A stretch of DNA of 64,000 nucleotides from Amoebophrya sp. A120. Its lineage: Eukaryota; Protista; Dinoflagellata. The DNA is taken from NCBI GenBank assembly GCA_905178155.1, contig CAJINV010000014.1, positions 902,116 to 966,115 on the forward strand. Direction: 5' to 3'. Below, one piece after another: positions 539 to 62,626 of the stretch. A program made the translations under genes and the position numbers. Within the stretch, counting starts at the first letter, position 1. Each line of letters begins with the position of its first letter. Under the pieces are notes generated by a model. That model did not search any database. It was given only the letters and a program-made list of their open reading frames with translations, and was not told where the DNA came from.

Positions 539-1437
539 TCACCAAGTAAAGAAAAATGTTCCGAAATAGTAAAACCACATGTAGTTATGTACCACGAAGA
601 ACAGCGCTACGGGACGGAAGGTGTAAGCGGTGTTGCGGATGTATCAAATGCAAAAATGTCTGGGTCTGGAAGAGTCATGCTGTTTTTGCATGACACAGCA
701 GGTCTGGCATGGAAGCTCTAGCATCACAGGTTTCGCGAAGCTTCCGCAATGCCTAATCCGCATGACAGATCCCCCATTTTGGGGACAGAAAGTGGGCAGC
801 TTTTGCTACCTATGCATGAGAGATTTTTCTGTGTTTTGAAATGCGCATCACAAGTTTGTCTTCTTCCAGATCCAGACATTTTTGCATTTGATAGGATGAC
901 GCCCACGGCAATTTCCTTCCACGCGGTCAGCACCCACAGCATCGAGAACTCAAAAATCAGCCCCTTTTCACCAATCGTCTGGAGTAAGCTGGATTTGCAG
1001 CTTTCCTCGACTACTTTATTGCGGTTATTTGTTCCAGCGTGTGGGTCTGCTGCAACTATACCAGTTTCCGTATTCACAGCTCTACTGCTGCTCCCCGCCG
1101 GCGCGGCCAAAGCTTGGATGCTGTTTTGTTGAAAGTTCGTTGCCCGGCCACTTTCCTCCCCGCCAGAGACTTTCGTGGTCGAGAGGTTCTTGGTCGAGAA
1201 GCACCGAGCATTCGTTCGCGAGGAAACGAAGTGCTGCAGCAGCCGCGTCTGCCGGTGCAGGAAGCTGGTCGTCGCGTTCTGGTTGGTGGACACGAGGGAA
1301 GAACCGATTGAGGACAAACTGCTCGCATTTCTTTTCAGCGTCGTTGCGGCACAACTTTTCGTGGGAGAAAACCGCGGCGCCAGCATGCGGCCCTGCTGCA
1401 AACACCGGGAGGCCGTAGCCGACAGAGGCTGAAGCAT
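539..1437 (-). CDS. Hypothetical protein with a mitochondrial-presequence-like N-terminus and hydrophobic C-terminus; 2 exons
   Basis: ATG at 1437 (MLQPLSATASR, R/S/L-rich). Removing element 642-893 plus one GGATG gives ...AVGVI|RNTAYTFRPVALFFVVHNYMWFYYFGTFFFTW*, with the stop at 539-541. Confidence 0.7.
642..893. mobile_element. Introner, family A (TIR TATCAAATGCAAAAATGTCTGGGTCTGGAAG)
   Basis: About 30-bp TIRs; perfect GGATG direct repeat at 637-641 and 894-898. Confidence 0.95.
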
Positions 1438-2179
1438 CTTTTTGTACGTAGTTCCAAACAGTGCGACAGGATGAGAGTCAATTAAGCAGTAGTTCCAGGT
1501 GACTGAATGAGTTCGCTGTCCACACAACTGCAGCCACCCTGGAGGTTGTAAAACTACCACTTATGAGTCCGGCAAGAGGCCGCTCGGGACGAGATTTTCC
1601 TCTGTCGCAGTGACCACGTTTAATAGATACGGATTCTAGCTGCACACGACAGGTGAGCGTCGTGCCAAGAAAAACCACGTCTTTCTTGAGCGTCGATGCG
1701 ACGGACTTTGTTTCACTCAAGAAAAGGGAAGACGAGACAAAAAAAACCAAAGAAACGACAACCATCGGCACTACTATGTACCACACGTCTGCAGCTGCAC
1801 CGGGTGATGAAGTAAGATGTCTAGAAAAAGACGCAAAACTAAAAGCAACTTTCACGGCAGCTGCCCCGCCAGTAGATGACGAGGCGGACAAGATATTTAT
1901 TGAACAGCAGACAACCTGCAGAGGCAAACCATATGCAGCAAAAACAAAAAGTTGTCACTGCCATCATGCCTTCAAATCTCATTGCTGGTCGAGGGGAAAA
2001 GGACATGCGTTGTAGTCGAGGGACAACTGAAAAAATCATGTTTTTCTGAATGTTACCTCTGCGAGCTCCGGCGCGGGGGAGAGCAGCTGCAGCTTTTGCA
2101 GCTTGAACAACAACTAAATGCTAAACAAAGCAGTACTTCGCATCGTCCGTAGCTCCAACACAAAAAAGAAACCATGTTT

Positions 2180-5100
2180 CTATCTCTCCAGCGAGAATTG
2201 TTTGCACGGGAAGCAATTTTTCTGCCGCAACTTCTTCTCCAACCGGAGCAGCTGATGCGTCTGCTTCGCGGCAAACCGGACCTGCTCCTGGTGCAGGGGC
2301 CGGTAGTTCCAGTTTGAATTGCTGAAGTCTTGCTCGTCCGGCGCCGAATAGCCGCCCGTGCGCCCCGCGTAGGTATCGCTTATTCCATCTAGCCCAAACC
2401 TTTTCTGCAACATCTTCACGCTCGGGTATCCTGAGTAAAACCAAAAGCCACGAGGACGGGGCCCGAGAGCCAAGATAGCGCGTACCGTTCTGTTTTCATG
2501 CGCCACACAAACCAACAAGTTCTGCGTGTTGCGCATGAAGACTTTGGGCTCGATTTGTTGTCGAGCTTCGCTGGTGTGAGAGACACATGAGAAATCGAAA
2601 AGGAGGATGTTGCGGTTCTAGCATGCCACATTCTAAACTATCACTAGAAACTGCTTCTCATGGGACTGCGTCTGAGTAACATCTAAAAACATGCAGATTT
2701 CTTGCATGACCATTCTGGGGAGGAGGGAACGTTTTTACTCAGGATATCGGAGCTGCGTTGATCAGCAGGGACTGGGTTGTGCACGGCACTATCGAACGCA
2801 AACATGTCTAGGTCTAGAAGCGATTTGTAATACAAAAGTTCCTTACAGCTCGTCCCAGACAACTCTGTAAATATAGCATGTCACGCAATGCCACTGGTCC
2901 TTCCTCATGAAAAAACGTACCGGCTTCTCTTGCGCTTTACGAACCACACGATCGTCCAAGAGTGTCTCATCCTTAGCAAGCTCCTGAAGCTACTCTTTCT
3001 CTTTGTCATGCACGCATTGGCATGACGACTCTCCAGACCCAGACATATTTGCAATGCATGGGCCCAGTAGATGCGATATTAGTTTGATGATCGGCCACAA
3101 CCGCGGTAGCAGGACGCTGAGCAGATGTCCTAGGGCCTCTACTTGCTTCCCCCTTCACAGAAAGCAAGCCTTCCTGCGTCGCTTGCAGTGCCTTTGCCGC
3201 GACCAGATCTGCCTCTTCGGAGCTTGTGCGCAGATCCCCTTCCGGAACAAAGATTCGCTGGATCCGTTGGCCCTGCAAGTCAATCACACTCGAGAACTTG
3301 TTGCGCGCAGTTGCAAATCGCGACGCAGTGGAGGACTCACCTCCACCGTCTTGGTGCAGGTCCGGAAACGACGAGGTGTAGCTGTTTCCACGACTGCTGT
3401 GCCGGAAAAAGTTCCAGCGCAGCAAGAAGTTCCCGAACCCGAAGCACACCTTGGGCAACTTACGAATGTTATCAGTTGCTCCGGTCGTCCTCGTGGCTAC
3501 GGCAGTAGCAGCCGCTCCTGTTTTGGACAAAATCGCCCCCTGCATCACGTCTTTTTCGAAAACGTGCACCACCAGATCGGCGTAGAGTTGCGACTCCTGG
3601 TGGTTCAGCATGTCGAACAGGAAGCAGTGCCGCGGCGTGGCCACGGTCAGCACCGACATCGGGGAATCAAACGATGCTTGGTAGCCGAACGCCACGATGG
3701 GGAGGTGTTCAGAAGATGCGGCGCCTTGCAGCTCTCGATCTTCACCATCGTGTCGTTCTACTGTTCTTCTCCTATCCGCAAGAACCTGCGCGTGCTTCAG
3801 CCTGTCCCTTTCCCGAAGCTCCTCCTCGATGTCGGTCTGCAAGATCCGCCGCACCTCGGCCAGCTGGCGCGTATGAGATGGCACAACTAGTACTCCCCGT
3901 CAACCGTATACACAATTGGAAGGGCATGATCAACAGCGATAGAAACCCCAGTGAATATTAAGGACAAGGAGCCTGTGCCTGGCTCGGCACGAAATCAAGT
4001 TAATACTTTTACGCCTCCGTGTGTCCACCTACTGTTTGGCCTACTTCCACCGGACGAGATGAATTGTCAAGAACACTATCTACAACTACGCCAAAGGGCA
4101 GCTGCAACTGGATATTTTAGAATATCGACTGCCAAGAACTGTTTGAGCAGGGGAAGCAGGGGGACAAGTTGTGCACTCGGATAGCGCGCGGAATCGATCC
4201 AATAGATCCGGTCGTCGGAAAGAAACGAGGTGCTTGTGCTGCTTGAAGCCGTCTTCTCGGCCGCTTCCCCAGGACGCGTTTTCTCCGCAGTCTCGCTGCT
4301 GCACAAGGTGGAAGTAGATGTCGCATAGGTTGTTTGTGCTGGTGCTGGCTTAGAACGACTCTGCGAACACAAAAAGGGCGCGGCGTTTTCCCACGGTCGT
4401 AAACCCCATAAGAGCGCCGGCGGGGTATTACTACGTTTTCCATCGGGTGAATCAAGAAACCCCGCCTCAGTCGTTCCCGGCTGGTCGTGCAACTGCTGGC
4501 CCGTGGTCACACCTACGTCCACAGCGGTCGAAAACCCGTAGGGGATCTTGATTTCGCCGTCGGCGCCGTCGAGTAGGCGGAGCGAAACTTGACGCTTCCG
4601 ATCGTACGCTTCTAGCTGCCGTCGCTCCCGTTCGCACTCGTGGGAAATGAATGTCGGCGCGGCTCCCCCACTACTTCTTCCCGGCGTTGTCCACCGTCCT
4701 TTCCTACCGCAATCATTGCTACTGCTCGCCGACAACCCGAACCCGCTCGTGTCAATTACATCTTCGTCAGCATGCTGTGGCGCAGACGCTGGAGGGCACG
4801 ACCAGGAGGAGGACGGTTGAATATAATCTTCGGAGTGGCTGCTTGCAGGCGCAGTTCTTCTTCCCCCTGATGTGCACGACGACCTAGTAGGCTCCATCTG
4901 CCTCATGTCTCCGGCCGAAGAATCCTCGCGGACGTGCGTGGACGGCCAAGAGGGCAGCTGGAACAACGATTGTTCGGGTCGTATGCATCGGAAACATGTT
5001 TGGGTCTGGATCTGTGATGCGAAAGTTGAAGGACAAGAAGATCTACTGTGATGCTCGAACACGAGCCGCCAATTTTTTGTCGTGCTGGAAGCCAGCCTTT

Positions 5101-8100
5101 CGTACGTTTTACGATTACGATTACGAATGAATCTGCTTATAAAAAAGTTCGAGAAACTTGTGATGCTGTTTAGATACCACGCAAGCAGCTCCACCTCTTC
5201 GATGCGAGCAGCTGCACGCGGCAGCACCACAACTCTATTCCAGAGCCAGACCCAATCATGTTTGCAATGCATAGGTCCTCGTGCTGGTGGGGAGAGACCG
5301 ACACCACTAGTCATCTCGTGACGCACTGCTCGTGCTCTGACCGTGTCCTCGTTGGTTCCGCCTGTGGTCGTCTTGGTCGCCGTCGTTGACGTTGTCCTGT
5401 CGACACCGTGTATTGTCTGATTTTCGAAGAGAGAACCAAAAGTCGCCTGTTCCTGCAAAGGTTCGTCGTCAGCCAAGCGCGACTTTGTACCATGGTACTC
5501 CACCGGGTTAAGTCCCCTTGTACCAGGCGCGTCAAAATGGTCGTGCCCCCACGGTTTATGTGCTCCCTGCTCGCCCGCGCCAATGATCTTTCCAATCGTC
5601 GCTTTTGCCCAGGCCACGTGCACAACGCTTCCGGCAACGCCCCCTGCAGTGGGGTAGCCCGTGACAGGGCACCTCCGCGTGACGAGCGGCGAGGGCTCAG
5701 ACGCTTCTGTGTCCGCGCAGCCGCACATTTGCAGTGCCTCGGCCAGCAACGGAGAGGTGGAGTACAACGAGGGTATAGAAGTTCTTTGTGCATCTGCCAG
5801 AGCAGCCATTTTTGCGCTGTGATCGTGCTCGTGAAGAAAATCCTCAGTCGAAGCTTTTCCATCGAAAGAAACTGCCGTGATGTCATGAAACGCCACGTCC
5901 AGTCGCGTCACCTGCAAGAGGAAGTCCTTGAGCAAAAACTCGGATTTCAACTCTAGAATCCGCTCCAGAAACGTGCGCAAGGCGAACCGACTCCGGGGCA
6001 ACAAAGGACTGGAGAGGTGAAGATTTTGCGAGGACGGCGAAAGGCTGCTCTCGTCGTGTGCCACGTTGTTTGACGGCCGCGGCGCGGGAATCGTGGTAGT
6101 ACAGTGCCAGGACAAAGAACTCACTTTGAACGCAAACTGCATCGCCTGGGCCAAATTCGTCGGCTTTTCGTGCATATGGATTTCGCAATGTGTGTGGGTC
6201 TGGAACGGAGGAACTTCTTACGCTTGATTTCCATTTTTTCTGCAAAATCTGTACTGCATCAGCAGCACACGCGACTCTTGTGTTGTAATACGTACCATGC
6301 TATGTACGAAAAATACTACACTCGATAAAAAAACTAGTGACGCTTGACAGAATAACTTGGACGCGGTTCCATCCTCCAAGGCTCAACATCACAAGTTTCC
6401 GGACGAGGACCCAGACATCATATTTGTAACGCATAGTACAGGAGCTGATACAAAATGGCGTCGACTGTCTCCGTTTTGATACAACTAGCAGATGATCTGC
6501 GGGCCGCAGAAAATCTTGCCGCATGAAGTTCTTGTGTGCGCTCTTGTTCTTGGAACAGCCCCGGGTTTACTGTGCAAAAGTTGTAGCGCAATGGTACTAG
6601 TAGTGGCTACTCTCATGCGACATGACAACTTTCTTTTGCCGTACCTGACTCTCAGTTTGTCGACAAATTTCACTTTCCAAGAACTTGATGATCAAAAACT
6701 TGTGAGGTAGATAGTACATTTATCAATTTTCACCACCACCTAGTACCATGGCTATTACTTTTGCAAAATCCCGTACCGGAAAGCGCTCCACGATTTCCAG
6801 AAAGGTTTTCGTACCCGTCACCTTCCACACCAGGTCCCGGTCAATTGAGTTCTTCTTGCAGGGCTCCTCCACTTCTGGGCTGGAAGAAAGCGCCGAGAGG
6901 CCGGTGGTGAAAGAACTGTTGTTTAACCAGAAGTACCGAGCGATCGCGAAAAACAGCATCTCCCGGACCTTTTCGCGGCGAACCTTGCGCAACTTGGCGC
7001 ACGACCGATCCAGGATCACGGGGTTGAGGCAGGCAAAAAAGTACTCGCAGTTCGGTTTCTTAGCGTGGACGGCGAACAAGGAGCTGCACAGCTGGTAAAT
7101 ATCGGAGTTGAACTTCTGCAATTTTTCCTCGTTGGGGTGGTTCAAGTAGGCGAATCCGTGCAACCGGTACATGATCCCAAACCTGTCGTAACCCGTGCCC
7201 CCATCGAAGACGTCCAAACAGTGGTAGATGAGGTTCGCAGCGATGTCGACCACCCGCCTCTCCTGGCACAGCTCGAGGATTAGCTCGGGCAAGGGAATGT
7301 TCAGTTCCTTGGGGTACATCTGCCTCTCCGAGGTTTGCAAATACCGCTCCAGCTGCTTCTGCTCGGAGAGCAGTGCTGGTGCGTAGTAGTGGTCACCGAA
7401 CGTCGGAAAGACGGGATTCGGATGCGTTCTTCGTGTGTCCGCAGTAGACGCAGACGAGGTACTGGCAACCGCACTGCAAACAACGCCACTCGATGAGGCG
7501 GAAGAACAAAACTTTCGGCTTTGCCGCTGCTGCGCGTGAGAAAGGCGATCCTTCGATGTGAAACGAGCAGGAGGAGGTCCTGTGGCAAACACGCCCAAGA
7601 AAACTGCAGCAACACCCGCTGCATCGACGTCGGAGGAAAAAAGAAAAGGCTTATCGCTCCTAATGACAACAACAGTCGCCTCTTGGGTCGTTGCTCCTGC
7701 GCTATGGTTTTTCCAGGGCCCGCGCAGCTGCCGGTGGTGCGGCCGGAGCGGGGGAATGGGCGGGGCGACCGTCGGCAAAGCTGGTGTCGGTGTCCATATT
7801 GCTGGTATAATTCCTGTGACGTTGTTTCCACCTGGAACAATACCCGCGGCCTTCGTGGACGTGCTGGGCCCACACAGCGAACACCGAGTAGTGCAAGACG
7901 AAGAAACAGAAGTGGACATCACTCGAGCGTGCATTTTCACTTTTTCGTTGTACTTACCCACTTTGAAGTGCAACTTTACGGGTTCTGTCCAATTCTTTAA
8001 AGTGCTTCTTGTTTGGCCGCGCAGATCCTCCACTTCTCCCTGCTTTAGGATCTTGTGCCATTAACCGATTATAGTGCTCGTCCTCTGTGTCTACTTATGA

Positions 8101-8345: not shown

Positions 8346-9438
8346 TGTCGTCAGTGTATCCAGTTGTTCTTTTTCCTTTCCAAAAAAACGAGCAGGCTGT
8401 TCTTTTTGCGTCTGCTTCTTGGAACGATCATTTTCATCTTCATCTTTCCGTAATACTTACGGCTCTCGTATTCCAATTCTAAAATCGCTTTCATCTCGGT
8501 GAATTTTCTTCGGTGACTTTGTGTTTGTGTGAAATAATCAATGTGGAAACAGTAAAAACACGCCTTGTGCTAAACTTTAAAACTGTATTCTCGTCCGAAT
8601 CTGGTTACAACAGCCGCGTTGAGGTCGTTTTCAAGGATGCTGCGCTGGTGTGCGACCATCTGCTGGTTCTATCGTATATTGTCCCACGCCGACCACACTA
8701 GGCAACATCATTCCTCGGAAACATTTCAGAACAACTACGTTAGTGGCCGCTTTGTACAAAAAAAGTGCATTTTCTTCATGTTTTATTCTACAAGGCATTT
8801 TAACTGAACGATGTCCCTACTAAAGTTGTAACTGGTTGCTCGACGTCCATTTGAAAAATACACATGTTCCACCGTAGTAAGATGCCCTGCGAAAAGTTTC
8901 CGATCTTCTCGTCCTCCGTTTGCAATAGCGTCAACCCGTCGAACTTTTAGGGCGGATTCCAAATCTGCGTCCGCGGTTCCCATCTATGAAAGTACACAAC
9001 TCTCCCCCCTCCCTCAGATGAAGGGCATTTGTTTCTAGCGTCACGCACATTTTTCCAGGCTGTGAGGAAAATCACAGCGGTTTCGGCATGACAAATCCAG
9101 GCCCGGACTGTGGTGCAGTTTGGGCCTCCTGAACTTGTCACGCAAGCACAGCCTGCAGGCTCTCTTAGATAGGTGAGGCTTTGGCATTTGACATCACAAA
9201 TGAGGGAGAGGGGGAGCTATAAGCACTCTCCTACCCTCCGTTGGGCGCCCAATAGTACGCGTTCTGGTGGCACTTGCCGTCTGGACCCGCGAGCCCAGCC
9301 GCATTCAGGCCTATCGATCGCAAAAGCAGCGGTGGAAATGCTACTGTAGCGCTTATTCATTATCCGTACAGAGCAAGCGAGCTTGCTTGTACCTGTGCGG
9401 TCCTACCTTGAACTTGAAGTCGTATTAACCTATGATTT

Positions 9439-12400
9439 TTACTCTAGAAGACACTTCCTAGCTGCATCGCAAGTCTTTCTATCCAGCCATCTTCCCATGC
9501 AAAAGAACTCGCCTGTTGTCCGGCCATTGACGTAGTACGCTACTTTTGCCTTGGGTAGTGCAGTATCGATCGCAAATCCGGCTGGGTTTGGAAATTTGTA
9601 TTGCTGTACTTCCGTTGCAAACTGATCGCACGTACGGCATAACGGCATGAGAAGTTTTCCTCAGCAGCTTCTGGCGCATTCATTCCTGAATAAGTAGCAT
9701 GACAAAGTTGCGCCTTCCCGCACGACCCTATCCACGCACACAGTAGATCTGGTTATCACGACGCGAGTCTTGCATCACACACCCAAACCCAGATATGTTT
9801 GCATATGCAGTTATTTTGGCAGTTGTAGACGGAAAAGACGTCGTCAGACACCTGGTACTTGAACTATGGTATGCGGTTGGAAAAAGTATTTGTCATGCAG
9901 AGCTAGCACGGTGGAGAAGGAGAACCTGCATCGTGCGAGCTCTGCATGACAAACTCTCTTTTAAGCCCGTACCTTCGTCCTTCAACTTGTCCAGGATGAG
10001 TCCTGCGCTATAGCAAGAAAAAAACTGCGCTTGTGTGACTTTGGTTTGTGTTTGTGATGCGGGACAAATAAGCAACCCGCATGTTGCATTTGTCATGCTA
10101 GTCCTAGTGGACAACCTTGATAGTAGCTTCGCCTCATCGTCAGATGAAACTGCTTCCTGCACTAGCAGCTCCGCAAGACAAATTTAGGTTTTTTCTGTCA
10201 AGACCGGCTGAATTTGCGATGCTGTCAGTCCAAGGAATTCGAATTCACCCTAACGCAGTTTTTTCTTCTGGATATTCGTCCGAGGGCTTGTATTGCGTTA
10301 TTCGCATGTCGATGTACCTTCATTTTCATTTCGGATAAGTACTTGGACACACTTACTCGTTGCAAATAATAAATGAATCCAGCGTGAGTAATAGGTTTTT
10401 TTTCTCATGCGCGTTATCATACGATGGCCATATCGTATGCAAAAATCCTGGTAGTTTTAAACCATAACAGCACCTCTGCGTCTGCGTGGCGGCGTCTGGC
10501 ACCCTGGCACAGCCGTTCATTTTCATCTGGGGCGTCGCGTTTTCGTTGTAGGCCCCTGCGATTCCGGTCTCTATCCGCACGTTGTACCCCAGCTGGCAGA
10601 GCAACGATTGCTCCAGGTTTTTCTTCAAGTAGTAGGCTAGCCGCTCCTCGTTGCCGCACGTCACATCAGTGTACTGGTAACAGGTATGCATTGCAGATAC
10701 GTCTGGGTCTGGCAAACAAGAATTGATTGCCATGCTAATGATCCATGGATGACGAATTTTTGTGCAGTTCTGTCGTGCGTTAAGGCGCATGAGGCTGCAT
10801 AAAGGTGGAGCAGTGCTATTCCGAGACATGCGACGCAAAATTGCACTGCAGTATGGTGCAAGTTTAGCGTCACAAGTCATGCCCATATAAGAGGTCTGGA
10901 ACACAAGCAAAGCATTACAGGTTTTGCGAAGCCGAAGGCCTCTTAATGCCGACCCCGCATACAGAAAAATTCGCAATTTGTGTAGCGAAAAGCAGGCAGC
11001 ACTCTGCACTCATGCAATACAGATTTTTCATTGTTCGGTCGAGATTTCGCATCGCAAGTTGGAACTCTACTTCCAGACCCGGACATAGTTCTACAAGGCG
11101 TAACAAGTCTGAATAAACCACGTCCCCACCACCGAACCGAGTGCCGCACCCCCACCGCCGGTAGCTCCTAGGACGCCCCGCGTATCCACTGCAAATATCA
11201 TGTCTGTGTCTGGAACAAAGGTCGTTGCACTTGCAATGCTTGTCTTGCGCATGGTCGGGAAAATAAATGGGGAAAAAAATTGTCGTGCACGGCTGCAATG
11301 AGAAATACTTACTTATCTACTCAATTATGGTCCGCAAGTCGGCGTCACAGGAGGTTTCCAGACCACGTCTCGGGATTATTATATTTGCAGTGGATACTGC
11401 GACGCCCACAACGAAACCGGCAACGAAGGTAACGTCGACTCCCCCGCGTCCTGGCCGAAGCCCGAAACCGGGCACCCGCCCGTGCAGTTGTGCGTCAAGG
11501 GGAGATACCAGTCTTCGAAAACATTCACCTGCGGCCCGTTCTGGAGCTGTTTCGCGTTGTAGAAGGAATAAGACGCGCATGGAAGGAGAATAAAGAGTGT
11601 GTCTTCATCGTGTATCTTTCCAGTTTTGATTCATACTCGGCGCACAGCATTACAACACTGTTTGGCAGGAAAGCGAAATAAACGCGCCGGAGCGGCAACG
11701 GACCCTGCAACCAATACCTGATCAGCATGAATGAATTATGTAGCAACGTCCCTCGACGAGCCTCGTCAGGCAGCCGATCGCTCATCCCCCGACGTACGTC
11801 GCCAGCCTACCAGCATGATAGACGCAACTGTCTTGCATACTTCGCATCACAGACCTACAGATAGTAACACACCAGTTTCTTTCTGCATACCGTGCGCTGT
11901 CGAACGAGACCAGTAACGGACGACGCCTTTAGTTCCAGGCGCTATCGCGAGAAAAAACTGTCGCGGTATCTCTGGTGTCATGCTCGACATGCAAGAACAT
12001 CAAAAAGGGGCCTGTAATCATTATCTGTAAAAAGGACTATGTGTTTTCTCTTTTTGCTCCTGCTTGGACCATCCACTTCCTTATACAGAGAGTTTTCTCT
12101 ATCCTGCTTCGAGAATCATTTGTGTAGCTGAGTCTGCAGAGTACGCTTGAGTTTGAGACAGTTTTTTTCCCGGGATAGAGGTTTCTCTTCCTGCAGTTGC
12201 AGCGTCATCACCTGCTGCAGTAAAGACTCGGGAGTGAGAATTGCCTCGAGCTCACGGCTATGCATCGCAACCACATCAGAGTCTGGAGGGAAGGGTGGAT
12301 GAACTACTTGTGAGGTAGATGCTTGTCGTGCATTCCTGCACCGTCCCTCCTGCATCACTAGCAAAAGCGTAGCTTTAACAAATACTCCTTGTCGTGTGGT

Positions 12401-14230
12401 CATGAGCACTGTGTGTACAGGAAAACAACCTGAAAACTTCTCATGCTCAGCTGATGCACTTGGAAAAGTTTCAAATGCCTTCAGTTCACTTAGCGTTATT
12501 CCAGGATTTTCCAGACAAATGATTTATTGCATTTGATAACGGTACTGGGAATCAGAATCAAGACCGCCGAAAAAAACTGTATGCAAGAAAAATGCCGTCT
12601 CAGTGTAAGTAACTTTGTGTTGCAGACACTGCAAATCATGCTCGACATGCATCATAAGGATGCGAGTGTGTTTTCACTCATGATCCATCTGCGAAGCGCA
12701 GATATATTTGTGATGCTGTTTCTCAAAGAGGGTTACACTAAGGCACTTTTTTTCCGGCATAAACTGGCACAGATATAAACTCTCCGTCGCAGAAGTTTGG
12801 GCCTGACAAATCAATAAGTAGAATCTTAATCTTTGCGCAAGTATTCGGCATGTGATAAAAACTAAATGGTCGACCATCTTCATACATCATGTACCCTACA
12901 CTGGGGGAGGTGGGCATGCAGAGCGCCCTATCTCTCCAGTCACCTGGACCTGGCAGCGCTTTCTTTGAAGCAACACAGCGACCGTGGTTAGTTATTAACA
13001 TTCACATTTTTTGTACTCGACAACTAAACGAGGAAAATGAACTTGCTCATCACGTGTAAGTAAGTACCGACGCCAAGATCGATGTCGATCCGCTTTCCCA
13101 CGCTCGTCGCTTATTGTAAGGGAAAATTTCCCCTCCACATAATTGAAAATGTATCGATCCGGATCCGCGCGACGCAGATATGCGCGCACGAGTTACGTCC
13201 CCATTGCAAGAAGGCAAAGCCAGAGAGTGCGCCGCGTCACCCAGGCGATTGGTAATGCTGTAAGGCCTACGGGGCAGCCGACCTCTGGCATGCTAAGTGC
13301 CTACACCACAACATCCCTGCCCAGGCTTAGAATCTGCATGCCGTCCCCTGCTGCAAGACAAACCTGACTTGTGCACACAAATCTCCCATCACAGATTTCC
13401 ATTTGAATATGGGGAGAAGGAATTTTTCACTTTGATATTGTTGCCAGCAGTTTCATGGCTGCAGAATTCAGCAACTTTTCAACTTTCCCGCTCTCGCACA
13501 GGCCCAATTTCTCGCTCACGGACATGTCAGACGCACCCATGATGGTGTAGTTGTATTACAGTGAAAAATGCCCCCACCACCAACGTTGCAAAAATTTGTG
13601 ATGCGAGGTTTCCAAATGAAAACTTTTTGTCATGCATGAAAGGAGTATGTTGAATCTTTCTGATGCAGAGTCTAGGCGTGCATCGCATCGCTTGCATGAC
13701 AAGCGACGCTCTTACTGGGGTCTTTTGCAATGCAAATTTTTGCTATTCACGATTGGAAACCTGTGATGCTGATAGATGCAAGAGAGCGAATGTTTCATTT
13801 GGAAAGGTTTGCATATACAAGTGCTCCCAAGTTCGTGGGTGGGGGCATTTTTCATTGTAATAAGTTGCCCCACAGCTTCAAAACCTTCGCCTGACTGCAC
13901 CTATGCATTGCAAATACGTCTGGGTCCGTGATGCCAGAGAAATGGAAATGTGTGCGAACGAGACCTGTATTGCATGAAGAGGACTGGCCAGGCGCTTTTG
14001 CGGCCGTGGTGGAAGGCAGTTTCCTTTCTTCATGCGATTATACTAACTAGTATACGAACGAATGTGCAAGAAACCTAGGAAATGAACTTGCCACACCGTA
14101 CTGCCGTCCGAAGATACGACCACTGCGTCATGCAAGAATACTCAGCAACACAAATCCCATACACATTTGCATCTGGTAGCACCAGTCGTTCGTCAACCTT
14201 TTCGGCTTCGAGCAGCACTGCCGTGTCCTG
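9439..14230 (-). CDS. Multi-exon hypothetical gene(s); structure only partly resolved
   Basis: Removing introners yields continuous peptides such as LWASQ|GVLGATGGGGAALGSVVGTWFIQTC|YQYTDVTCGNEERLAYY, SQYR|ELEAILTPESLLQQ and NDWC|SQAKVLKLWGN|YTIMGASD. No family recognised and boundaries are approximate. Confidence 0.4.
9564..9805. mobile_element. Introner, family A (degenerate)
   Basis: Diverged TIRs; perfect TGCAG DR. Confidence 0.75.
10685..11102. mobile_element. Introner, family A (long, degenerate)
   Basis: TATGCATTGCAGATACGTCTGGGTCTGG...TTCCAGACCCGGACAT; DR ACAGG/ACAAG. Confidence 0.7.
11183..11396. mobile_element. Introner, family H (TIR TATCCACTGCAAAT)
   Basis: TATCCACTGCAAATAT...ATATTTGCAGTGGATA; DR CCGCG/CTGCG. 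Confidence 0.8.
11943..12177. mobile_element. Introner, family E-like
   Basis: TATCGCGAGAAAAAACTGTC...GACAGTTTTTTTCCCGGGATA; DR diverged. Confidence 0.65.
12259..12538. mobile_element. Introner, family A (degenerate)
   Basis: Diverged TIRs; DR ACGGC/ACGGT. Confidence 0.7.
13112..13437. mobile_element. Introner, family D (degenerate)
   Basis: TATTGTAAGGGAAAATTTCCCCTCCACATA...TATGGGGAGAAGGAATTTTTCACTTTGATA; DR TCGCT/TTGTT. Confidence 0.75.
13554..13862. mobile_element. Introner, family C (TIR TATTACAGTGAAAAATGCCCCCACC)
   Basis: Near-perfect TIRs; perfect AGTTG DR; similar along its length to 30185-30490. Confidence 0.95.
13902..14178. mobile_element. Introner, family A (degenerate)
   Basis: Perfect GCACC DR; right TIR eroded. 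Confidence 0.75.
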
Positions 14231-54611: not shown

Positions 54612-57600
54612 TCAGCTGCCCTGGCCCTGCAGCGAGTGTTTCACCTGAAACAAGAAGTCAATCTCGTGCTGTTTCAGCACTTGGTTCTGGTCAAACGCGG
54701 CCACCAGTGGCGCACATCGCTCGTTCGTGGATTTTTTGTACTGGAGCGCCGTTTCCTCGGCAGTCATGGCCTCGTCTCGCGTGTTTGTCAACTCCAACAC
54801 CGTCGCGTTGATTGCGTTGGACTCGGTCACGAGCGATACTTTCTGCTTCTCGATCGCAAATTTCTGGTTCGACAGTTGCTCCTTCTCCTTCCGGTAGTTC
54901 GTTTTCACGTCGTTCAGCCTGTCTAATCCGTCCGACACGCTCGCTTCCACTTCGGACAGCATGGTCTGCAGCAAGACCACAATGCTGCCCCCGGACTCGT
55001 GCTTCTCGTACGGATTTGCCTTCTCGGGTCGCTCCACCTTCGGCAACCCACTAGGGTACGTTTCGTTCCTCGCCGACAAGGAGGAAAGGGATTTTTGTAA
55101 GAACAGCACCGGAACGCTCATCCCGTAGAACCGCTGCAGTTGGTCGATGGCGGACTGAATCACCTGTAAATGCAGTTGTTTCCGTCTGGAAACCTGCAAA
55201 AATTGAAATGCACGCTTCCCCATGAGATACTACGCACTTCAATTTCAATTTCAATACCCCTCCAGGCATGACAAATCTTAATCTTTTGTGAAGGGTGCAC
55301 TTTCGCTTTTCGAAGTCCGCAATACAAGCTTGCATTATTCCAGAAGACCGAGACAAATTTGCAGGTGATAGATTGGATAAACTTGCTCGACTCTTGGTCG
55401 TCTTTGATTTTCGCCTTCACCGTTTCGATCTCCTCGACCTTCGCCTGCTCCAAGTTCGCAAATTCAAATATATCAATGCCAAACATGTAGTAGTCTGCGC
55501 ATCATGGAGGTGTAATGTTCGTCTCTTGAAACGAACTTCAGTAGCACAACTTAATACCCAAGCACGACAATGTTTTTGAAGGCGGGTACTGCATCATGCG
55601 TAAACAGTTTTGAGAAGTAGGAATCGCCCCCCTTGTCTTGCATGACACTACTAAGCCAACATACGGCACTCCTGACGCACTTCATGCATCACAGATTTTG
55701 GCTCGTCCATGCGAAATATTCATCTTCCACACGACCCAGACTGAAAAATATGTTTGCAGTTGATAGACCTCCAGCTCGTGCAACTCGACGTCTGCGTTCA
55801 GGATTTTCTCGGGGAAGGTGATCGCGACACCGGATTGCAAGTCCAATTCGCCCTGGACGGTGTCGTACTCATGACTCTTCTCGGTCAGTTGCAAACTGGC
55901 CTCCTGCTGCTCCTTCAGGCACTCGTCTTTCTGTTCCACTTCCTCCTGTTTTTCCTTTTTCATCTCCGCGATCCTTCCGTCGATTTTGTCCAAAATGAGA
56001 CTGGTTGCGGCGGCAAGCTCCGGCGACTGTTTTGACGTGATCAGTTGCTTCAATTGGACCATTGCCTTCATTATCAAATGTGAAAGTGTCTGGGTCTGGA
56101 AGATTGGAACTTGTCATGCTAAATCTGAATCATGTAAAAATCTGTGTTGCGTCATTACCAAAAGCTGTCCACTAATCGAGAGGCAGTGTCTCATGCAGAA
56201 TAGGCATGATAGAACTCTCACAGCATCTGTCATGCTATGTCCTACATGGCAGACCTCATGGGTCATGGAAAACCTGCATGACAAGGACAACGCTTGCATT
56301 CATCCAGACCCAGACATTTTTGCATTTGATATTCATCGTGTTGACTTTTCGCCGGATCACTTTGTTCAGGACGGATTTCGGGGACGTGAGCAGCTCCAGT
56401 TTAAAATTGTTGTTCTCTCGGCGGTTATGCTGAGGAACCGTCGGGCGAAAACTCCTTCCAGCGTTCTTCTCCTTCTGCTTCCTGTTTTTCATCTTCTCTT
56501 GCTCCATCATGGCGTCTATGTATTGCAAAAGTGTCTGGGTCTGGAAAGTTGGAACTTGTTATTGCAAGGAAAAATCCCCCCTCCGCATATCAAAACGGAA
56601 ATCTGTGATGCAGATTTGTTGTCACAAATCAGCTTTGTCATGCTACACGGGAAAAGATGCGGACTGTAGTGCTGGGTGGCGTGGGGGAGCCTTGCATCTT
56701 CAGCATGATAGGAGGCAGCTGAGAGTGGGAAACAGCATGACAAATTGCCTGCAAACGAGACCACGACTGCGGCTCTTGGCCTTCTAGTATGGCAAGTCGA
56801 TTTGGTGCCTCAAATTCTGCATCACAGATTTCCATTTCGATATGGGGAGGGGGGATTTTTCCGTTTGATACTTGTGATGCTACCTTTGGAACCCGGAACC
56901 TTTGGACTCTACATAAAATCTGTATTGCATGAAAAGCATAAGAGAGGCAATTTGTGCTACGCGGAGAGGGCTTTTCTCATGCGGTATGAGCATCGTGAAG
57001 CCCTCGCAGAGTCTCTGATGCTAGGGCATGCATCACAGACCTCATGGGTCATGGAAAATCTGCATGACAAACTTCTGCACTCTTCCAGACCCAGACATAT
57101 TTGCATTTGATAGCGTCCAACGAATTCGCGTCTTCGTCGTCCGAAAATTTCAAACTTTTCAACTTCAAAATCGGAGAAGCTAGGGACGACTTCTTGGCGG
57201 ATGCTTCTGTTCTTGAAGTACTAGTAGATCCACTAATAGGAGACGCCGCTCGCCCGCCTTTCGTTGTCGCTAAACCAGCCGCGCCCGCTTCCTCTACTGT
57301 TCCACTACCCGCCTTCGCCGCAGCCCGTGCTCGTCCACGACCAGCTGCATCCTCTTCAACCGGAACGGGAACGGAAGTACTAGCACCGGTTGTTCTTTGA
57401 AAAATTTTCCGCTTTTTATCCACAAGCTGGCTTGATGTTTTTCGCCGTTTGAACAACGATTCTCCAGCACGACGAGCTGCAGAAGCTTTGGTCATCTGCG
57501 ACGCTCTTGTCGAGGTCGCGGACCCGTCGTGCTTCGACGCAAACAGCGTGAACGCGCTGCTACTTCCTGTTGGTACAACGGTTGTAGTGTTGGTCCCGCT

Positions 57601-60600
57601 GCTCCCGCCCATTAACCGTTCCAAAGTGGCGTCCAACGCCGCAACTTCCTGCTCCCGTGCCGTGACCCGCGTGTCGTACTCTTCGCTCTGGAGTTGACAG
57701 GTCACCTCTAGCTCGTGCAACGTCTTCTTCGCCTCTTCCAACACATCGCCGGACTTTCCCAGCTGATTTTCCACCTGCAACAGCTGCAAACTGTTGGTCG
57801 ACAGTTCCTGCTTCTTCTGGGAAATAGAGTCGTCGGTGGCGGAGATTTCTTCCGTTTTCTTCTCCTTCAACGACGAAAATTCCGTTTTCTTGTGCGTCAA
57901 ATCGGCCCTGGTTTTTTCCAAGTCTTTGGTAAAAGTCTCCTGCATGGAGGACAGGATCCCGAACACCTTCTGGGTTCCGGCAGATTGGAATTCCGTGCGG
58001 GATGTCGGCGGCGCGGGGATCTGGTGGTCCTTCAAAATCTGCAGCAGTTGCGGCTTCATTGATAACGATGTTGGAGGACCGGCTTGATTTTGCATGATCT
58101 GCTCTTTGTCTTTACCTTGTGGAACAAGCGTGTTTGTAATTTTCGTGTCGGAAATAACGCCTGCTGGAATCGTTCTTACAGATGAAGTCGGAGAAGTTCC
58201 AAACAGAAACTGCTGCAGAACGTCGAACACCCTCGACAAGGTCAGACTGCGCACGTCACTCGCCGGTAAAACCACCCCCTCGTCGATGAAAGAAGAAGTT
58301 GTTGCACTCCCACTGTTATCAAATGTAAAACTGTCTGGGTCTGGAAACTTGTAATGCTGAGATGTGAGTAGTAAGTGCTCTGTAGTGCACAACCAAGCAT
58401 GAGAAATATTTGCGGGGCTACAGTGTTGCGCTTTTCGCATAACAAACTGCGTTTTTGCATGACAAGCAAAGGGGTCTCTTCTTGGACACGCATTACAGAC
58501 TTTTCAGTCATGCTAGACAAGCATGACAAACCTTGCATCCTTCCAGACCCAGACATTTTTGCAATCCATAACTGTGCTTTCCCAGAATCACCAAAGCGCC
58601 ATTTAGCGCGCCGATCGACTCGACGAGGTCCTTATCGAATGCAAATATGTCTGGGTCTGCGAGGTTGCATCAACTTGCGATGCTGTCTTTGGAAGGTAAA
58701 AAAAATCTGTATTGCATGACCAACAAGAGGAGTTCAGTTTGTGCTACGCGGAGTGTGCATAATTTCTCATGCGGAATACGCATCAGAAGGACCTTCAAAA
58801 ATCTGTGATGCTAGGACATGCATTTCAGGCATCATGGGTTATGCAAAATGTGCATGAAAAACCTGGCAATCTTCCAGATCCGGACATGTTTGCAATGCAT
58901 AGTCCTGCTCCAGCTCCTGCTTTTCCGCCAGTTCCTTCTCGCATCCTGTGCAAAAGTATCGCACTCGTACAAATGCAAGTCTTGCATTACAAATCTTGTT
59001 TCCAAGGCAAACCTGCGTTACAAATTCGATTTCTCATGCTGGGGAAATTTATAATGCATTTATACGAGTACGATACTTTTGCAATGCATATCTCGAAAAC
59101 CTCCACCAATTGCTTCAAGGAGGCTTGCATCTCCGCCGAATCCGCGGTCAAATTTTCGATGTCCATTTCCAAAGCCGCGATGGTCCCGGTGAGCCCAGCT
59201 TTTTCCTCTAACAATTTCTCCTTGTCGGAATTCTCGATCTGAAACTTGGCTTCGTTCTTCTCCGTTTCGCAGTAGTTCTGGAATTTCGCGAACCAGTCAG
59301 CGTCGTTATCCACGTCTTGCTCCACCTCCTGCCTGACTTTCTCCAGTAACGTGATGACCTTCGCGATCGGCTCGGCCGGCGGGTCTTGGACTGCGACTTG
59401 ACTCGCGGTTCCTTCCGTTTTCTTCTGGTAAACGAAAAATTGGTTCCTCTTTTGCAGCTGCCGCAAGAAGACTTCCTGTTCCGCAAGGGACGTAGTACCT
59501 TGTTGGAACAGAGATTTTTTTACCTTCCTTTTCATCTTCGGAGCGAGTCCCCGAGCACGGCTGGTAGAGGATGAAGTAGAAATGAATTCCTTGCCACTTT
59601 TGACCTTCTCCGTCACGACTTGAATTTGCCGTTTCCGCTCCCGTTCAAACTCGTCCGCGAGGTCGTCGTCGTGGAAATCGCTAGAAGTTGTAATAGCTCT
59701 CTGGTCTTTGCTTGTTTCGCTGGTTTGTTCCTTTATTTCCGCATGTTGCAACCTGTTCGACAAGCGGCCGTTCTTCGAATTACTATTTCCCGTCTGCACC
59801 AACGTCGCTGCTGTAGCACTATTGCTGCCCATCGTCGCCGCCTGGGAGCTGGCCAGTTGCAACGCGCTCTTCAAGGATTCCAGCAACTGATCCCGCTTCA
59901 ACTTCCGTGCCTCGTAGGACTCCGCCACGTTGCACATACGCGTGCTGTTGGTCAACTTGTTTTCCGCGGCCGTGACCTTCTGCGCCGCCCACGGCTCGTG
60001 GTGGTCTTCGTTGATCTTCAGCAAAGTTCCGCTCGCCCACATGGTTTCGTTCTTCAAAATAATCTCCTGCTGCATCGCCGTCTTGGTCGCCAGCTCGTTC
60101 GCGTGCAGTTCCCCGTAGTTTTTCAAGTCCAGTTGCAGCTGGTTTTCCGTGTTGGTCACCGTGTTGCTCATGTCGGTTTCCACCACTTCCAGCATGGCGA
60201 TCGCGTTCTGGATGGCGGAATTTTGCGCCAGTTCCGGGCGGTCCAGTTCCAAAAGCGCGGACTCCAGAATCGGGATCGCCTCCTGCGCCTCCGCCAACTG
60301 CTTCTCGTTCAAAATGTTGGACTCTACGAAAGTTTGGTTGTGCTTGTCCATGCTGGCCTGGACCTTCGCCAAATCCACTTTCTCGTCCTCGATGTCCTGC
60401 CACATCTCCGCCACCTCTCCGTGCAACTTCTGGTTCGTGGTCTGGTACCACTTCAGAATGCCCGCGGCGGAGTGCAGCGTTTGCGCGTCGGATTTCAGCA
60501 TCTGGTCGCACATCTGCTGTGCCTTCATGTCCTCGATGTTCTCCTGTTTCAGTTTCAAGATGAGGTTTTTCACCAAGTTCACGACTTTCAGCATGGAAGT

Positions 60601-62626
60601 GGAAACGTAGGAGCTCGTGCTGTCCTGATCAGGATTCTGCTTCAATTGTTCTGTCGAAGCCGTAGAAGATGATCTGCTGCTTCTAAACAGCTGCTTCCTC
60701 GCTTCCCGTAGTTGCTCAGAAATCATAAACGTAGTCGACTTGATGTTCATCCTCTGGGTCGTGGAAGCGGCTGCGCTAGAACTACTTTGCGCATCGGTGG
60801 TCATTTGATGTTCCCCAGATATCGACGCCGTCGCCAACCGCATCGCCTGCGTTTGCGCGTGCTCCAAAACCCGTTTCAAGGAATCGCCGTGTTCTGCTCC
60901 TTCTTGCAAACTATGCATTGCAAAAGCATCGACGCACTTGGACCACGTACAAATCTAAATCATTTGTTGTGAAAAAGATAAAAATTCTGAAGCAATCTGC
61001 ACCGCTGATTCAGATACTTAATCACAACGAGTTCTACACGATAGACCTCAAGATGAGCTTTTGCCGTTGATACAAGAACATCATCGCAGCTGTTGCCATC
61101 GCACTGCTTTTCAGCACGTTCACCGCGGACGCACAGGCGGAAATCTGCATTTTCAAGTCCTTTTCCAGCTCCAGGAATTCCTTCTTCTTCGCGTCAATCT
61201 CATTCCCCAGAGAAACGATAAGCGACCCGGACGAGTCGGAGTACTCTTGTGCCGTCTTGATCGCGTCCGTTTTCTCGGTGACAATCGCCGCCTTTTCCGA
61301 TTTCTCCTCGTCTATCTTCGTCAGCCGCGTGTATCAACTGCAAAAATGTCTGGGTCTGGAAACTTGTGATGCAAGTCAGGGAAAAATGCGCATACTGTAA
61401 TGCACTGCCAAGCATGACAAGTTTTTCCGTGGTTCAGAGTTGAATACTCTGCATGAGAAACTGCGTTTTCGCATGACAGGCAAGAGAAGCCCTTTGCGGC
61501 CATGCAATTCAGAGCTCAAAGTCATGCCGGACTAGCATGACAAATCCCGGAATCTTCCAGACCCAGACATTTTTGCATTTGATAGCGTGTCACACCGGTC
61601 AATCTCGGACTGGAGCAGTGATTGTTTCTCGTCGTAGGTCGTAACCGCGGTCTTCTCCTCGGTATTGAGCTCCTCGAGTTCCTGCATGGCCTGCGTTTCC
61701 AGCTCCTCGATCATTTGCTTCAAATCCTCGACACTGCTGGCTTTCGTTAGCGATTTTTTGGAGGATTTCTTCTCGGATAGACCTCCGCGAGTTGATGTTG
61801 TTGTTTCCAAAATCATCTCCACCGCTGCGCTGTGCTGCTTGGCTTCTTCTGTGCTGGAAGTATAAGTCCTCGTGTCTGTCTGCAAAAAGGACACCGCATT
61901 GCTGCTCATCGCCGTCCCGCTTTCCTGCAATTTCATCGCTAACACGTCAAATTGGTCCAACGCGGTCCTCACCGCCTTCGAAAACTCCTCGTTTTTTGTG
62001 AGCACCTCGCGGTATTCACCGTGCTCCTTCTTCCGCTCCGCTTCGTTCTCCGCGTGGATCTTCTTGCTCTCCCGCAGCTCCGTTTGCAGCAGGCTGTCCT
62101 CTTCCGCCAACTTCTCCAGATCGTTCTCCGCGGTCGCCTTCTCTGCCGAGGCAGTCACCAAAGTGGTTTCCGCGTCCGTGTAAATCTGGTTCTGTTCCGA
62201 CAACGACGTCCCCAGGGTCTGCTGCTCCTGCCGGTGAAATGTGGTCCGTTCGGTGAGGTCCGCGGCGGCTTTTTTCCCGATGCCGTCCAGAATCTCGATC
62301 ACCTTCTGGACCATGGCGTTCTTCTGGAGCACAACAAGACCACCTCCGTGCTGCTGCTGCTGCTGCTGCTGCCGCTGCCGAACAGCGGTCGTCGAACTGC
62401 TGCTGCGGGAAGATTCGTCTGCATTTAGAAGTTGATGCAGTTGCAGTTTATGTTCCGCAGCTTCCATGCGCCCTTGCCTTTTCTCCACTACCAGGACAGC
62501 GGTTGCCGGCACTATTACAGCATTGAAGTCCAGCAGTATAGTAGCCGTCGAAAAGATCGCTGCAAGAACTACCCTTGCTGCCAATGGGCAGCGAAGGGAG
62601 GAGAATCGTAAAACGGAAAGCCACAT
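54612..62626 (-). CDS. Large repetitive coiled-coil protein with a putative signal peptide; 9 introner introns
   Basis: Hydrophobic N-terminus, then repeated units beginning MVQKVIEIL / MLKVVNLV / PIAKVITLL with FLQ-like motifs. All introner junctions are in frame. ATG at 62626, stop at 54612. Confidence 0.8.
55158..55370. mobile_element. Introner, H/A-like (degenerate)
   Basis: ATCACCTGTAAAT...ATTTGCAGGTGATA; DR GACTG/GATTG; removal gives KFIQS|AIDQ. Confidence 0.75.
55471..55765. mobile_element. Introner, family A (degenerate; DR lost)
   Basis: Removing the element plus 5 bp gives HELEV|EFANLEQ. Confidence 0.65.
56072..56331. mobile_element. Introner, family A
   Basis: Perfect TTCAT DR. 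Confidence 0.95.
56517..57112. mobile_element. Introner, family A, hosting a nested family D element
   Basis: Perfect GCGTC DR; removal gives SLDA|MMEQ. Confidence 0.93.
56560..56870. mobile_element. Nested introner, family D
   Basis: D-type TIRs; perfect CTTGT DR inside the family A sequence. Confidence 0.93.
58317..58570. mobile_element. Introner, family A
   Basis: Perfect ACTGT DR. Confidence 0.95.
58633..58901. mobile_element. Introner, family A
   Basis: Perfect GTCCT DR. Confidence 0.93.
58942..59090. mobile_element. Introner, family F (TIR ..TGCAAAAGTATCGYACTCGTA)
   Basis: Perfect TCTCG DR; 149 bp. Confidence 0.9.
60912..61072. mobile_element. Introner, family F (degenerate)
   Basis: DR CAAAC/CAAGA; removal gives MMFL|QEGA. 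Confidence 0.72.
61332..61584. mobile_element. Introner, family A
   Basis: Perfect GCGTG DR; removal gives CDT|RLTKI. Confidence 0.95.
62349..62371 (-). repeat. (CAG)7 coding microsatellite (polyQ)
   Basis: Tandem CTG on the + strand. Confidence 0.9.

What the first reader, a model, noticed from the sequence alone, without database searches (positions are those of the whole stretch)
637..61589. Multi-family system of TIR elements acting as non-GT-AG introns (TAT...ATA ends, 5-bp direct repeat)
Seen: at least 48 elements, roughly a fifth of the window, in about 8 TIR families. Nearly all start with TAT and end with ATA. 25 have a perfect 5-bp flanking repeat, with no obvious target consensus. 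Deleting an element plus one repeat restores the frame, including conserved METTL14, kinase and DUF3431 motifs. The boundaries have no GT-AG, while ordinary GT-AG introns occur in the same genes. Established: introner elements with inverted and direct repeats were described in Amoebophrya (Farhat et al. 2021); as far as I know the excision mechanism is unresolved. Inference: different TIR families share one end rule, which suggests a single transposase lineage and a structure-guided splicing route in which TIR pairing juxtaposes the exons.
Basis: partly seen in the sequence, partly recalled or inferred. Interest (0 to 1): 0.9.

Follow-up and report, generated by a model that had tools for sequence, protein, structure and literature searches.

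The report
Hairpin introns cut at fixed offset
In the marine parasite Amoebophrya, dozens of small jumping-gene insertions interrupt genes and are missing from assembled transcripts at one fixed offset although they lack the normal intron end signals; the elements were already described, and the apparently unreported offset likely points to a relaxed form of the ordinary splicing machine.

Summary
The window is Amoebophrya sp. A120 (two proteins 100% identical), and these are the introner elements of Farhat et al. 2021, who already reported TAT starts, direct repeats and a hairpin model. Transcript contigs skip element+5 nt at 10 of 10 element joints shown, none at GT-AG. Not found in print: one cut register fits all 10 joints (1 nt before TAT, 4 nt after ATA, in transcript direction; p about 7e-5) and all 18 junctions in two annotated proteins. 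Removal stays exact where the direct repeat has decayed (0/5 match) and behind a stop codon. The register makes the donor N-U-A-Y, matching the GUAY donors of 7 of 7 confirmed ordinary introns. U+2/A+3 are better kept than their mirror bases (3 vs 19 changes in 388 elements); +1, -2 and -1 are unconstrained. Best reading (0.55): a hairpin-guided U2-type spliceosome blind to G+1 and AG. Rival (0.35): Euglena-like non-spliceosomal excision. No transposase was found. The scan noted similar introns earlier in other dinoflagellate DNA.

The parts
642..61584 (-). Whole system: 69 TIR elements (TAT...ATA, 5-bp flanking repeat) in a run of minus-strand genes; intron = 1 nt + element + 4 nt in transcript direction
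18653..18911 (-). Element behind the stop codon (19371-19373) of a 236-aa frame; repeat 0/5; joint pinned exactly at 1 nt up / 4 nt down
18972..19211 (-). Element behind the same stop codon; repeat 1/5; ends ATT; register 0 or 1 (left end was set with help of the joint)
19443..19717 (-). Element, donor C-TAC, repeat 1/5; register 0 or 1
20036..20222 (-). Element, repeat 2/5; register 0-2; 20-nt exon to the next element
20247..20500 (-). Element, donor C-TAC, repeat 4/5; register 1-5
20746..21210 (-). Element (465 nt), repeat 1/5; register 0 or 1
22394..22677 (-). Element, perfect repeat; skip = L+5, register not resolvable
24615..24913 (-). Element, repeat 2/5; joint pinned exactly at 1 up / 4 down (G-TAT donor, non-AG end)
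25311..25584 (-). Element, repeat 2/5; register 1 or 2
25810..26118 (-). Element, repeat 3/5; register 0 or 1
19806..25235 (-). Five ordinary GT-AG introns in the same transcripts: 19806-19974, 20536-20701, 21312-22207, 22744-22949, 25051-25235; donors GTATA, GTACA, GTATT, GTACT, GTACT
55158..59090 (-). Seven elements (55158-55370, 55471-55765, 56072-56331, 56517-57112, 58317-58570, 58633-58901, 58942-59090) absent from one 2912-nt transcript contig; gaps 518, 866 and 687 nt equal the sums of L+5
56560..56870 (-). Element nested in 56517-57112 with its own perfect 5-bp repeat; removed together with its host
30128..36072 (-). Gene of annotated A120 protein P0121 (971 aa) with 11 elements: 30185-30490, 30551-30810, 30896-31209, 31359-31643, 31770-31950, 31995-32292, 32719-32927, 33005-33267, 33365-33656, 34725-35031, 35066-35327; all match L+5; 31359 and 32719 allow register 0-1, 33365 allows 1-2
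48244..53719 (-). Kinase gene (annotated A120 protein P0124, 1200 aa) with 7 elements: 49471-49792, 50354-50620, 51450-51644, 51845-52106, 52159-52439, 52875-53054, 53252-53585; all match L+5; 51450 allows register 0-1
36756..41983 (-). METTL14-like gene with elements 39787-40029, 40795-41009, 41304-41586 and two GT-AG introns starting GTATA and GTATG
642..6435 (-). Elements 642-893, 2427-2746, 2790-3060, 3872-4183, 4982-5273, 6175-6435 (frame restoration only)
8985..16691 (-). Elements 8985-9233, 9312-9557, 9564-9805 (uncertain), 9870-9971 (uncertain), 10009-10274, 10685-11102, 11183-11396, 11943-12177, 12259-12538, 12580-12761, 13112-13437, 13554-13862, 13902-14178, 14224-14534, 15205-15527, 15594-15877, 16051-16292, 16430-16691 (sequence and frame only)
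27883..28891 (-). Elements 27883-28163, 28236-28553, 28581-28891 (left end uncertain)
45258..45526 (-). Element of the largest family, perfect repeat, in a 550-aa frame
60912..61584 (-). Elements 60912-61072 and 61332-61584 in the 1867-aa frame

Best explanation
These are non-coding, MITE-like DNA elements with a 5-bp flanking repeat that are missing from the transcripts as element plus 5 nt, cut 1 nt before the TAT and 4 nt after the ATA in transcript direction, and they are likely removed by the cell's U2-type spliceosome with the terminal hairpin standing in for normal splice-site pairing. Shown: exact removal, the fixed register, independence from the direct repeat, and free bases at +1, -2 and -1. 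Inferred: a transposase made the 5-bp duplication; the paired inverted repeats bring the two ends together (U1 snRNA was not detected in this organism); the 5' cut is set by reading U+2 A+3 Y+4 as a GUAY donor that lacks only its G; the 3' cut is set by distance, possibly from a branch A at -7. Because 1+4 equals the duplication length, every new insertion restores the exon exactly, in either orientation, so such elements can accumulate in coding sequence.
For: Register: only '1 up / 4 down' fits all 10 element joints shown; 2 pin it exactly; chance under independent cuts about 7e-5; 9 of the 10 ends were called from sequence beforehand. All 18 junctions in two annotated A120 proteins match L+5, none L+2 or L+8, and all allow register 1; three allow only 0-1 and one only 1-2. 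Donor likeness: 7 of 7 confirmed ordinary donors begin GTAY (5 by transcript joints, 2 by homology). The commonest 5'-end variant is TAC (6 in the window, 10 in other loci), mirroring GTAC. Direction-dependent conservation: window 7 vs 0 changes at +4/-7 and 1 vs 8 at +2,+3/-5,-6 (n=64, Fisher p=0.0014); replicated in 324 oriented elements from another assembly (12 vs 4 and 2 vs 11, p=0.0025); pooled 3 vs 19. Farhat Table S4: all 18 commonest non-canonical sites have T at +2 (A120 NT-, A25 TT-), and A25 repeats start TTA, so U+2 A+3 would hold in both species while the hairpin offset differs (my inference). Farhat found a near-complete spliceosome with snRNP27 undetected, and loss of SNRNP27K goes with +4 U donors in yeasts (PMC10581693 abstract). 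Precedent: the U2 spliceosome handles TIR-derived non-GT-AG introns in Fritillaria.
Against: G+1, A-2 and G-1, the core spliceosomal signals, show no selection: G+1 in 99 of 324, GT-AG in register 6 of 324 vs 6.7 expected. No branch-site consensus or pyrimidine tract was shown, and A-7 is not invariant (4 changes in 388). The donor bases are predicted to be paired in the stem in about 10 of 16 folds and would need unwinding. My argument that terminal changes avoid G-U wobble held in the window (1 vs 11) but failed in the other loci (9 vs 11, p=1.0). The canonical-donor sample is small (7), and a strand-asymmetry count was only weakly consistent (GTATG 158 vs 106, GTAAG 132 vs 132, GTACT 287 vs 370). 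Related copies are not independent, so the p-values are too small. Table S4 may carry aligner bias. Euglena shows that fixed spacers around a paired motif also occur in introns excised as circles. No lariat or inhibitor data were available.
Confidence: 0.55

Rival explanations
1. A separate, non-spliceosomal cut-and-ligate route, as proposed for euglenid nonconventional introns: a protein recognises the terminal stem and its U-A bases, cuts at fixed spacers (1 and 4 nt) and ligates the exons, releasing a circle.
For: No constraint on terminal dinucleotides. All 16 element introns keep end pairing, against 1 of 4 ordinary introns. Euglena's code is likewise a paired motif with fixed unequal spacers (N3CDG...CH'G N5-6) and circular products. 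U1 snRNA not detected.
Against: The register places TAY exactly on the +2..+4 positions of the host's GUAY donors (1 of 6 possible registers), and the tolerated variant TAC mirrors GTAC. The hairpin offset appears to differ between A25 and A120 while U+2 A+3 is kept. No candidate enzyme is known.
Confidence: 0.35
2. The joints are artefacts of reverse-transcriptase template switching across stable hairpins with direct repeats, or the elements are excised at DNA level.
For: Hairpin plus direct repeat is the classic substrate for template switching (own knowledge). X3 and X4 are contigs whose RNA status is the tool's guess, from one sample.
Against: Exact joints occur with 0/5 and 2/5 repeat match and no slide room. 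The same contigs lack GT-AG introns too. Unspliced frames would break (element lengths fall in all three frame classes). The DNA run X1 runs continuously into the element ends in all 8 pieces shown.
Confidence: 0.04
3. The elements are spliced at hidden GT-AG or GC-AG sites near the ends (for example G|TAT...ATA|G, adding one codon), as in Micromonas or Aureococcus introners.
For: L+2 removal would also keep the frame, and Gozashti's automated calls list 'co-opt' mechanisms for A120 families.
Against: 0 of 10 joints fit GT/GC-AG on the sense strand; skip is L+5 in 10 of 10 and in 18 of 18 protein junctions.
Confidence: 0.02

Closest known systems
Amoebophrya A120 introner elements / non-canonical introns (Farhat et al. 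2021, PMC7789003)
   Same: Same organism (P0121 and P0124 100% identical), TAT + 7 nt + AAA repeat start, 3-5 nt direct repeats, about 240 nt, hairpin model, mixed with GT-AG introns, no transposase found.
   Different: [quoted passage not shown] Here one register fits all joints, the direct repeat is dispensable and the donor reads N-U-A-Y. The paper does note a 4-nt repeat upstream of the 5' end, which fits this register.
Euglenid nonconventional introns (PMC12501133; review PMC11282704)
   Same: Probably MITE-derived, terminal pairing, fixed unequal spacers, sliding direct repeats, coexist with GT-AG introns.
   Different: Motif CDG/CH'G at +4..+6 with spacers 3 and 5-6, purine at exon start, circular products reported. 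Here TAY at +2..+4, spacers 1 and 4, no purine rule seen (t5 near uniform), product unknown.
Fritillaria borealis TIR-derived non-canonical introns (PMC11282704; bioRxiv 10.1101/2025.08.15.670264)
   Same: Non-autonomous TIR elements turned into most introns; U2-type spliceosome reported to remove them.
   Different: Fritillaria keeps preferred ends (AG-AC, AG-AT). Here +1, -2 and -1 are free.
Micromonas / Aureococcus / Symbiodinium introners (PMC9860276)
   Same: TIR and target-site duplication; length-neutral removal.
   Different: They carry or co-opt GT/GC and AG; these elements do not.

Membership tests
Amoebophrya A120 introner elements | Host is Amoebophrya A120 | tested here: met
   100% identity to two annotated A120 proteins; A25 orthologues 81-84%
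Amoebophrya A120 introner elements | Inverted repeats starting TAT, seven variable bases, then AAA | tested here: met
   End matrix; A at positions 11-13 in 300-315 of 324 ends
Amoebophrya A120 introner elements | 3-5 nt direct repeats at the borders | tested here: met
   46 of 69 with at least 4 of 5 matching
Amoebophrya A120 introner elements | Removed from transcripts without GT-AG | tested here: met
   10 of 10 joints shown; 7 more by gap sums
Amoebophrya A120 introner elements | Repeated families | tested here: met
   12-member family in both orientations; 84-97% identical copies in another assembly
MITE / non-autonomous TIR DNA transposon | TIRs, constant-length target duplication, short, non-coding | tested here: met
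   nested copy with its own 5-bp repeat
MITE / non-autonomous TIR DNA transposon | Cognate autonomous element encoding a transposase | tested here: inconclusive
   None among long TIR pairs in the window and 80 loci or among 73 of 74 long ORFs scanned; whole genome not held
MITE / non-autonomous TIR DNA transposon | Empty-site allele proving the duplication | tested here: inconclusive
   A25 orthologue proteins are colinear across METTL14 and P0121 junctions; no empty DNA site was obtained
U2-type spliceosomal intron | GT/GC at the 5' end and AG at the 3' end | tested here: not met
   0 of 10 joints; 6 of 324 in register, as chance
U2-type spliceosomal intron | Donor +2..+4 like the host's ordinary donors | tested here: met
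   N-TAY vs GTAY in 7 of 7 confirmed ordinary introns
U2-type spliceosomal intron | Branch adenosine and lariat | not testable with these tools
   A-7 kept in 384 of 388 elements and present in 4 of 5 ordinary introns: a hint only
Euglenid nonconventional intron | Terminal base pairing with fixed spacers | tested here: met
Euglenid nonconventional intron | N3CDG...CH'G N5-6 | purine code | tested here: not met
   Ends are N-TAY...HYA-type with spacers 1 and 4; exon start base near uniform
Euglenid nonconventional intron | Excision as full-length circles | not testable with these tools
   Only contigs covered the exons; no raw RNA reads did

The most novel reading that the evidence does not exclude
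Amoebophrya runs a U2-type spliceosome that ignores G+1 and the 3' AG altogether: the transposon hairpin replaces U1/U2AF, the 5' cut is read from U+2 A+3 Y+4, and the 3' cut is measured from a branch A at -7 inside the inverted repeat. Spacers of 1+4 equal the 5-bp duplication, so any insertion of the element is born as a perfect intron in either orientation.
Probability: 0.4. Interest if true: 0.85.

Novelty: already known. Interest (0 to 1): 0.55.

Why it matters
The element class is published for this organism, so the finding as posed is a rediscovery. Its splicing mechanism has been open since 2021, and the original paper left the borders undefined. A fixed 1/4 register with an N-U-A-Y donor turns that into concrete tests: where to look for a branch, which bases to mutate, and how to place tens of thousands of sliding junctions. 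If the spliceosome does this, it would be removing introns with no terminal-dinucleotide rule. If it does not, there is a second, independently evolved Euglena-like RNA excision system to find.

Tried and rejected
No whole genome was held, so no genome-wide clustering or transposase search was possible. No listed holder is on record as RNA; X3 and X4 are guessed RNA contigs of one sample. Raw RNA runs X9 and X10 laid only 45 and 3 reads, on element fragments, and none on exons, so they say nothing on strand, level or minor isoforms. Including the DNA run X1 flooded the joint table (660 rows not shown), so that region is read from contig pieces only. L+2 and L+8 removal and nearby GT-AG sites were rejected. 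10431-10634 looked like an element but is coding and was dropped. The 'terminal changes avoid wobble' argument did not replicate and is dropped. A general T-to-C strand bias as cause of the end asymmetry is not supported inside the arms (60 G-U vs 46 A-C pairs). Long TIR pairs (L042 972 nt, L027 631 nt, L033 1549 nt) held no long transposase-like frame, and no transposase family was hit in 73 long ORFs. DUF3431 not confirmed. Rfam: 0 hits in the window. The k-mer strand test for donor consensus was inconclusive. Roy et al. 2023 is not held. X1 depth at TIR bins (5,600-72,700 vs about 28) fits many copies but is not a copy number.
Full report
1. Observation. Inverted-repeat scans and curation give 69 elements between 642 and 61584, median 269 nt, 28.9% of the window; three have uncertain ends (9564, 9870, 28581). 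51 of 69 have TAT and ATA at both ends; 27 have a perfect 5-bp flanking repeat and 19 have 4 of 5. A strict detector recovered 38 elements, all in the curated set, and none in 3 shuffles. All host frames are on the minus strand. Removing element+5 nt gives frames of 1867, 1230, 981 and 360 aa across 9, 7, 5 and 8 elements. MT-A70 and kinase domains are confirmed; DUF3431 is not.

2. Identity. The METTL14 exon's best hit is Amoebophrya sp. A25 at 84%; two other exons match annotated Amoebophrya sp. A120 proteins at 100%. Farhat et al. 2021 (PMC7789003; I read the abstract, passages, sections 10, 11, 12 and 16, and supplement text for Tables S4 and S7 and legends S19-S25; figures were not visible) describe exactly these elements: A120 repeats start with TAT, seven variable bases and AAA, 3-5 nt direct repeats, 1954 families, 17% of the genome, hairpin model, U1 snRNA and snRNP27 undetected, no transposase in A120. 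They state that no clear splicing signature was found and that border positions remain unknown. The class is therefore known. Their Fig. 3 and S19-S25 images, which I could not see, may show part of the register described below.

3. Transcript evidence. The run search listed 11 runs. Contigs of X3 and X4 are guessed RNA from one sample; they lack both GT-AG introns and elements, while the 8 pieces shown for DNA run X1 run into the element ends. In one search, 15 of 40 joints were shown: 5 GT-AG introns and 10 elements. All 10 skip element+5 nt and none fits GT/GC-AG on the sense strand. In one search, one 2912-nt contig lacks 7 elements; its three gaps (518, 866, 687 nt) equal the sums of L+5, including a host with its nested element. 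Two annotated proteins give 18 further junctions: all match L+5, none L+2 or L+8. These gene models are transcript-based and may not be independent of the runs, but the junctions are different ones. Minor isoforms cannot be excluded: contigs drop rare variants, and some X3/X4 loose ends show element sequence joined to other flanks.

4. The register. Where the repeat has decayed, the cut can be placed. Allowed offsets upstream of TAT were {1}, {0,1}, {0,1}, {0,1,2}, {1-5}, {0,1}, {0-5}, {1}, {1,2}, {0,1}; the intersection is {1}, with chance about 7e-5 under independent uniform cuts. Nine of the ten ends were called from sequence before the lay; the left end of 18972 was adjusted afterwards. 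Protein junctions add {0,1} three times, {1,2} once, {0-3} and {0-4}. The intron is therefore N-TAT...ATA-NNNN. Removal is exact at 0/5 repeat match (18653), and two joints lie behind the stop codon of a 236-aa frame. So neither the repeat nor frame selection sets the length. Copies of the largest family lie in both orientations in minus-strand genes (5 vs 7); the three of them covered by the transcript contig share one orientation, so orientation independence rests on frames and on annotated junctions (33005 vs 30551 and 35066).

5. What is read. In this register the 5' end is N-U-A-Y. All 7 confirmed ordinary donors begin GTAY. In 64 window elements (3 uncertain dropped, nested and 33365 not included) changes at +4 vs its mirror -7 were 7 vs 0, and at +2/+3 vs -5/-6 were 1 vs 8. 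A scan of metagenome contigs returned 134 loci from one assembly; the 80 of at least 1500 nt held 364 unique elements with at least 4/5 repeat match, of which 324 could be oriented by a codon model (63 of 64 calls right in the window on which it was trained, 3 uncalled; 40 elements dropped). They gave 12 vs 4 and 2 vs 11 (p=0.0025). Pooled: 3 vs 19 and 19 vs 4; related copies inflate significance. Positions +1, -2, -1 show no preference (GT-AG in register 6 of 324, expected 6.7). The wobble argument failed to replicate. All 18 commonest non-canonical sites in Farhat's Table S4 have T at +2. All 16 folded element introns keep 10-22 expected end pairs; 1 of 4 ordinary introns does.

6. Mechanism. 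Best reading (0.55): insertion with a 5-bp duplication, then removal by a U2-type spliceosome in which the hairpin pairs the ends, U+2 A+3 Y+4 is read as a donor without its G, and the 3' cut is set by distance, perhaps from A-7. Steps after 'fixed register' are inferred. Support from print: Fritillaria's U2 spliceosome removes TIR-derived introns (passages); loss of SNRNP27K goes with +4 U donors (PMC10581693, abstract and passages). Rival (0.35): a Euglena-like non-spliceosomal route with fixed spacers and circles (PMC12501133, abstract, passages and Discussion). Template switching and hidden GT-AG sites are largely excluded.

7. Transposase. The shared 5-bp repeat and the symmetric G9/A11-13 motif fit one mobiliser, but the shared TAT could equally be a splicing filter. 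No autonomous copy was found. Gozashti 2025 (PMC12130899; passages and 21 of 58 A120 rows of one dataset; supplement files 13-14 not searched) lists most of those families as TIR DNA of unknown superfamily with mixed automated calls, and one TIR family with LTR-like homology. A 5-bp duplication and occasional TGT ends would fit an integrase-like enzyme (recalled, not tested).

8. Novelty. Paper searches and passages of PMC11282704, PMC11453091 and PMC9860276 showed no statement of the fixed register or the N-U-A-Y donor; Roy et al. 2023 was not held, and subscription papers are mostly not searched. Verdict: known system, confirmed here at transcript level, with an apparently new boundary rule that makes the open mechanism testable. 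Interest 0.55.

Noticed in passing
window 9558-9563: Only 6 nt separate elements 9312-9557 and 9564-9805; under the register this leaves a 1-nt exon, which would need ordered removal.
   Followed up: no
window 20223-20242: A 20-nt exon between two elements is retained exactly in transcript contigs of both runs.
   Followed up: yes
window 17950-19370: About 900 nt of transcript behind the stop codon of a 236-aa frame, still carrying two precisely removed elements; likely a long 3' UTR.
   Followed up: partly
window 20536-20701: This GT-AG intron folds with 13.6 expected end pairs (z -3.5), unlike three other ordinary introns; it may be an old element-derived intron.
   Followed up: no
window 19806-25235: Four of five transcript-confirmed GT-AG introns have A at -7, three as CTTA; possibly a short fixed branch distance shared with the elements.
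   Followed up: partly
L042 6001-6972: A 972-nt copy of the main family carries an A-rich-ended insert flanked by a repeat of about 15 bp, like a small retro-insertion.
   Followed up: no
window 56088-56152: 42-45 raw reads of run X9 match this element fragment and continue into other sequence, while no exon is covered; a related element is transcribed in that sample.
   Followed up: no
window 24615-24913: This element has an atypical end (no AAA at 11-13) and internal repeated words, yet is removed at the same register.
   Followed up: partly
window 1-64000 and loci L001-L102: All genes with elements in the window are on one strand; 40 of 46 loci with at least 3 oriented elements are unidirectional, as Farhat reported.
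   Followed up: partly
L010 591-2090, L042 2117-3301, L031 3663-6176: Neighbouring genes include a C-5 cytosine DNA methylase, RNA polymerase Rpb1-type subunit and TRIP4/ASCH protein; elements lie in the same loci as such core genes.
   Followed up: no
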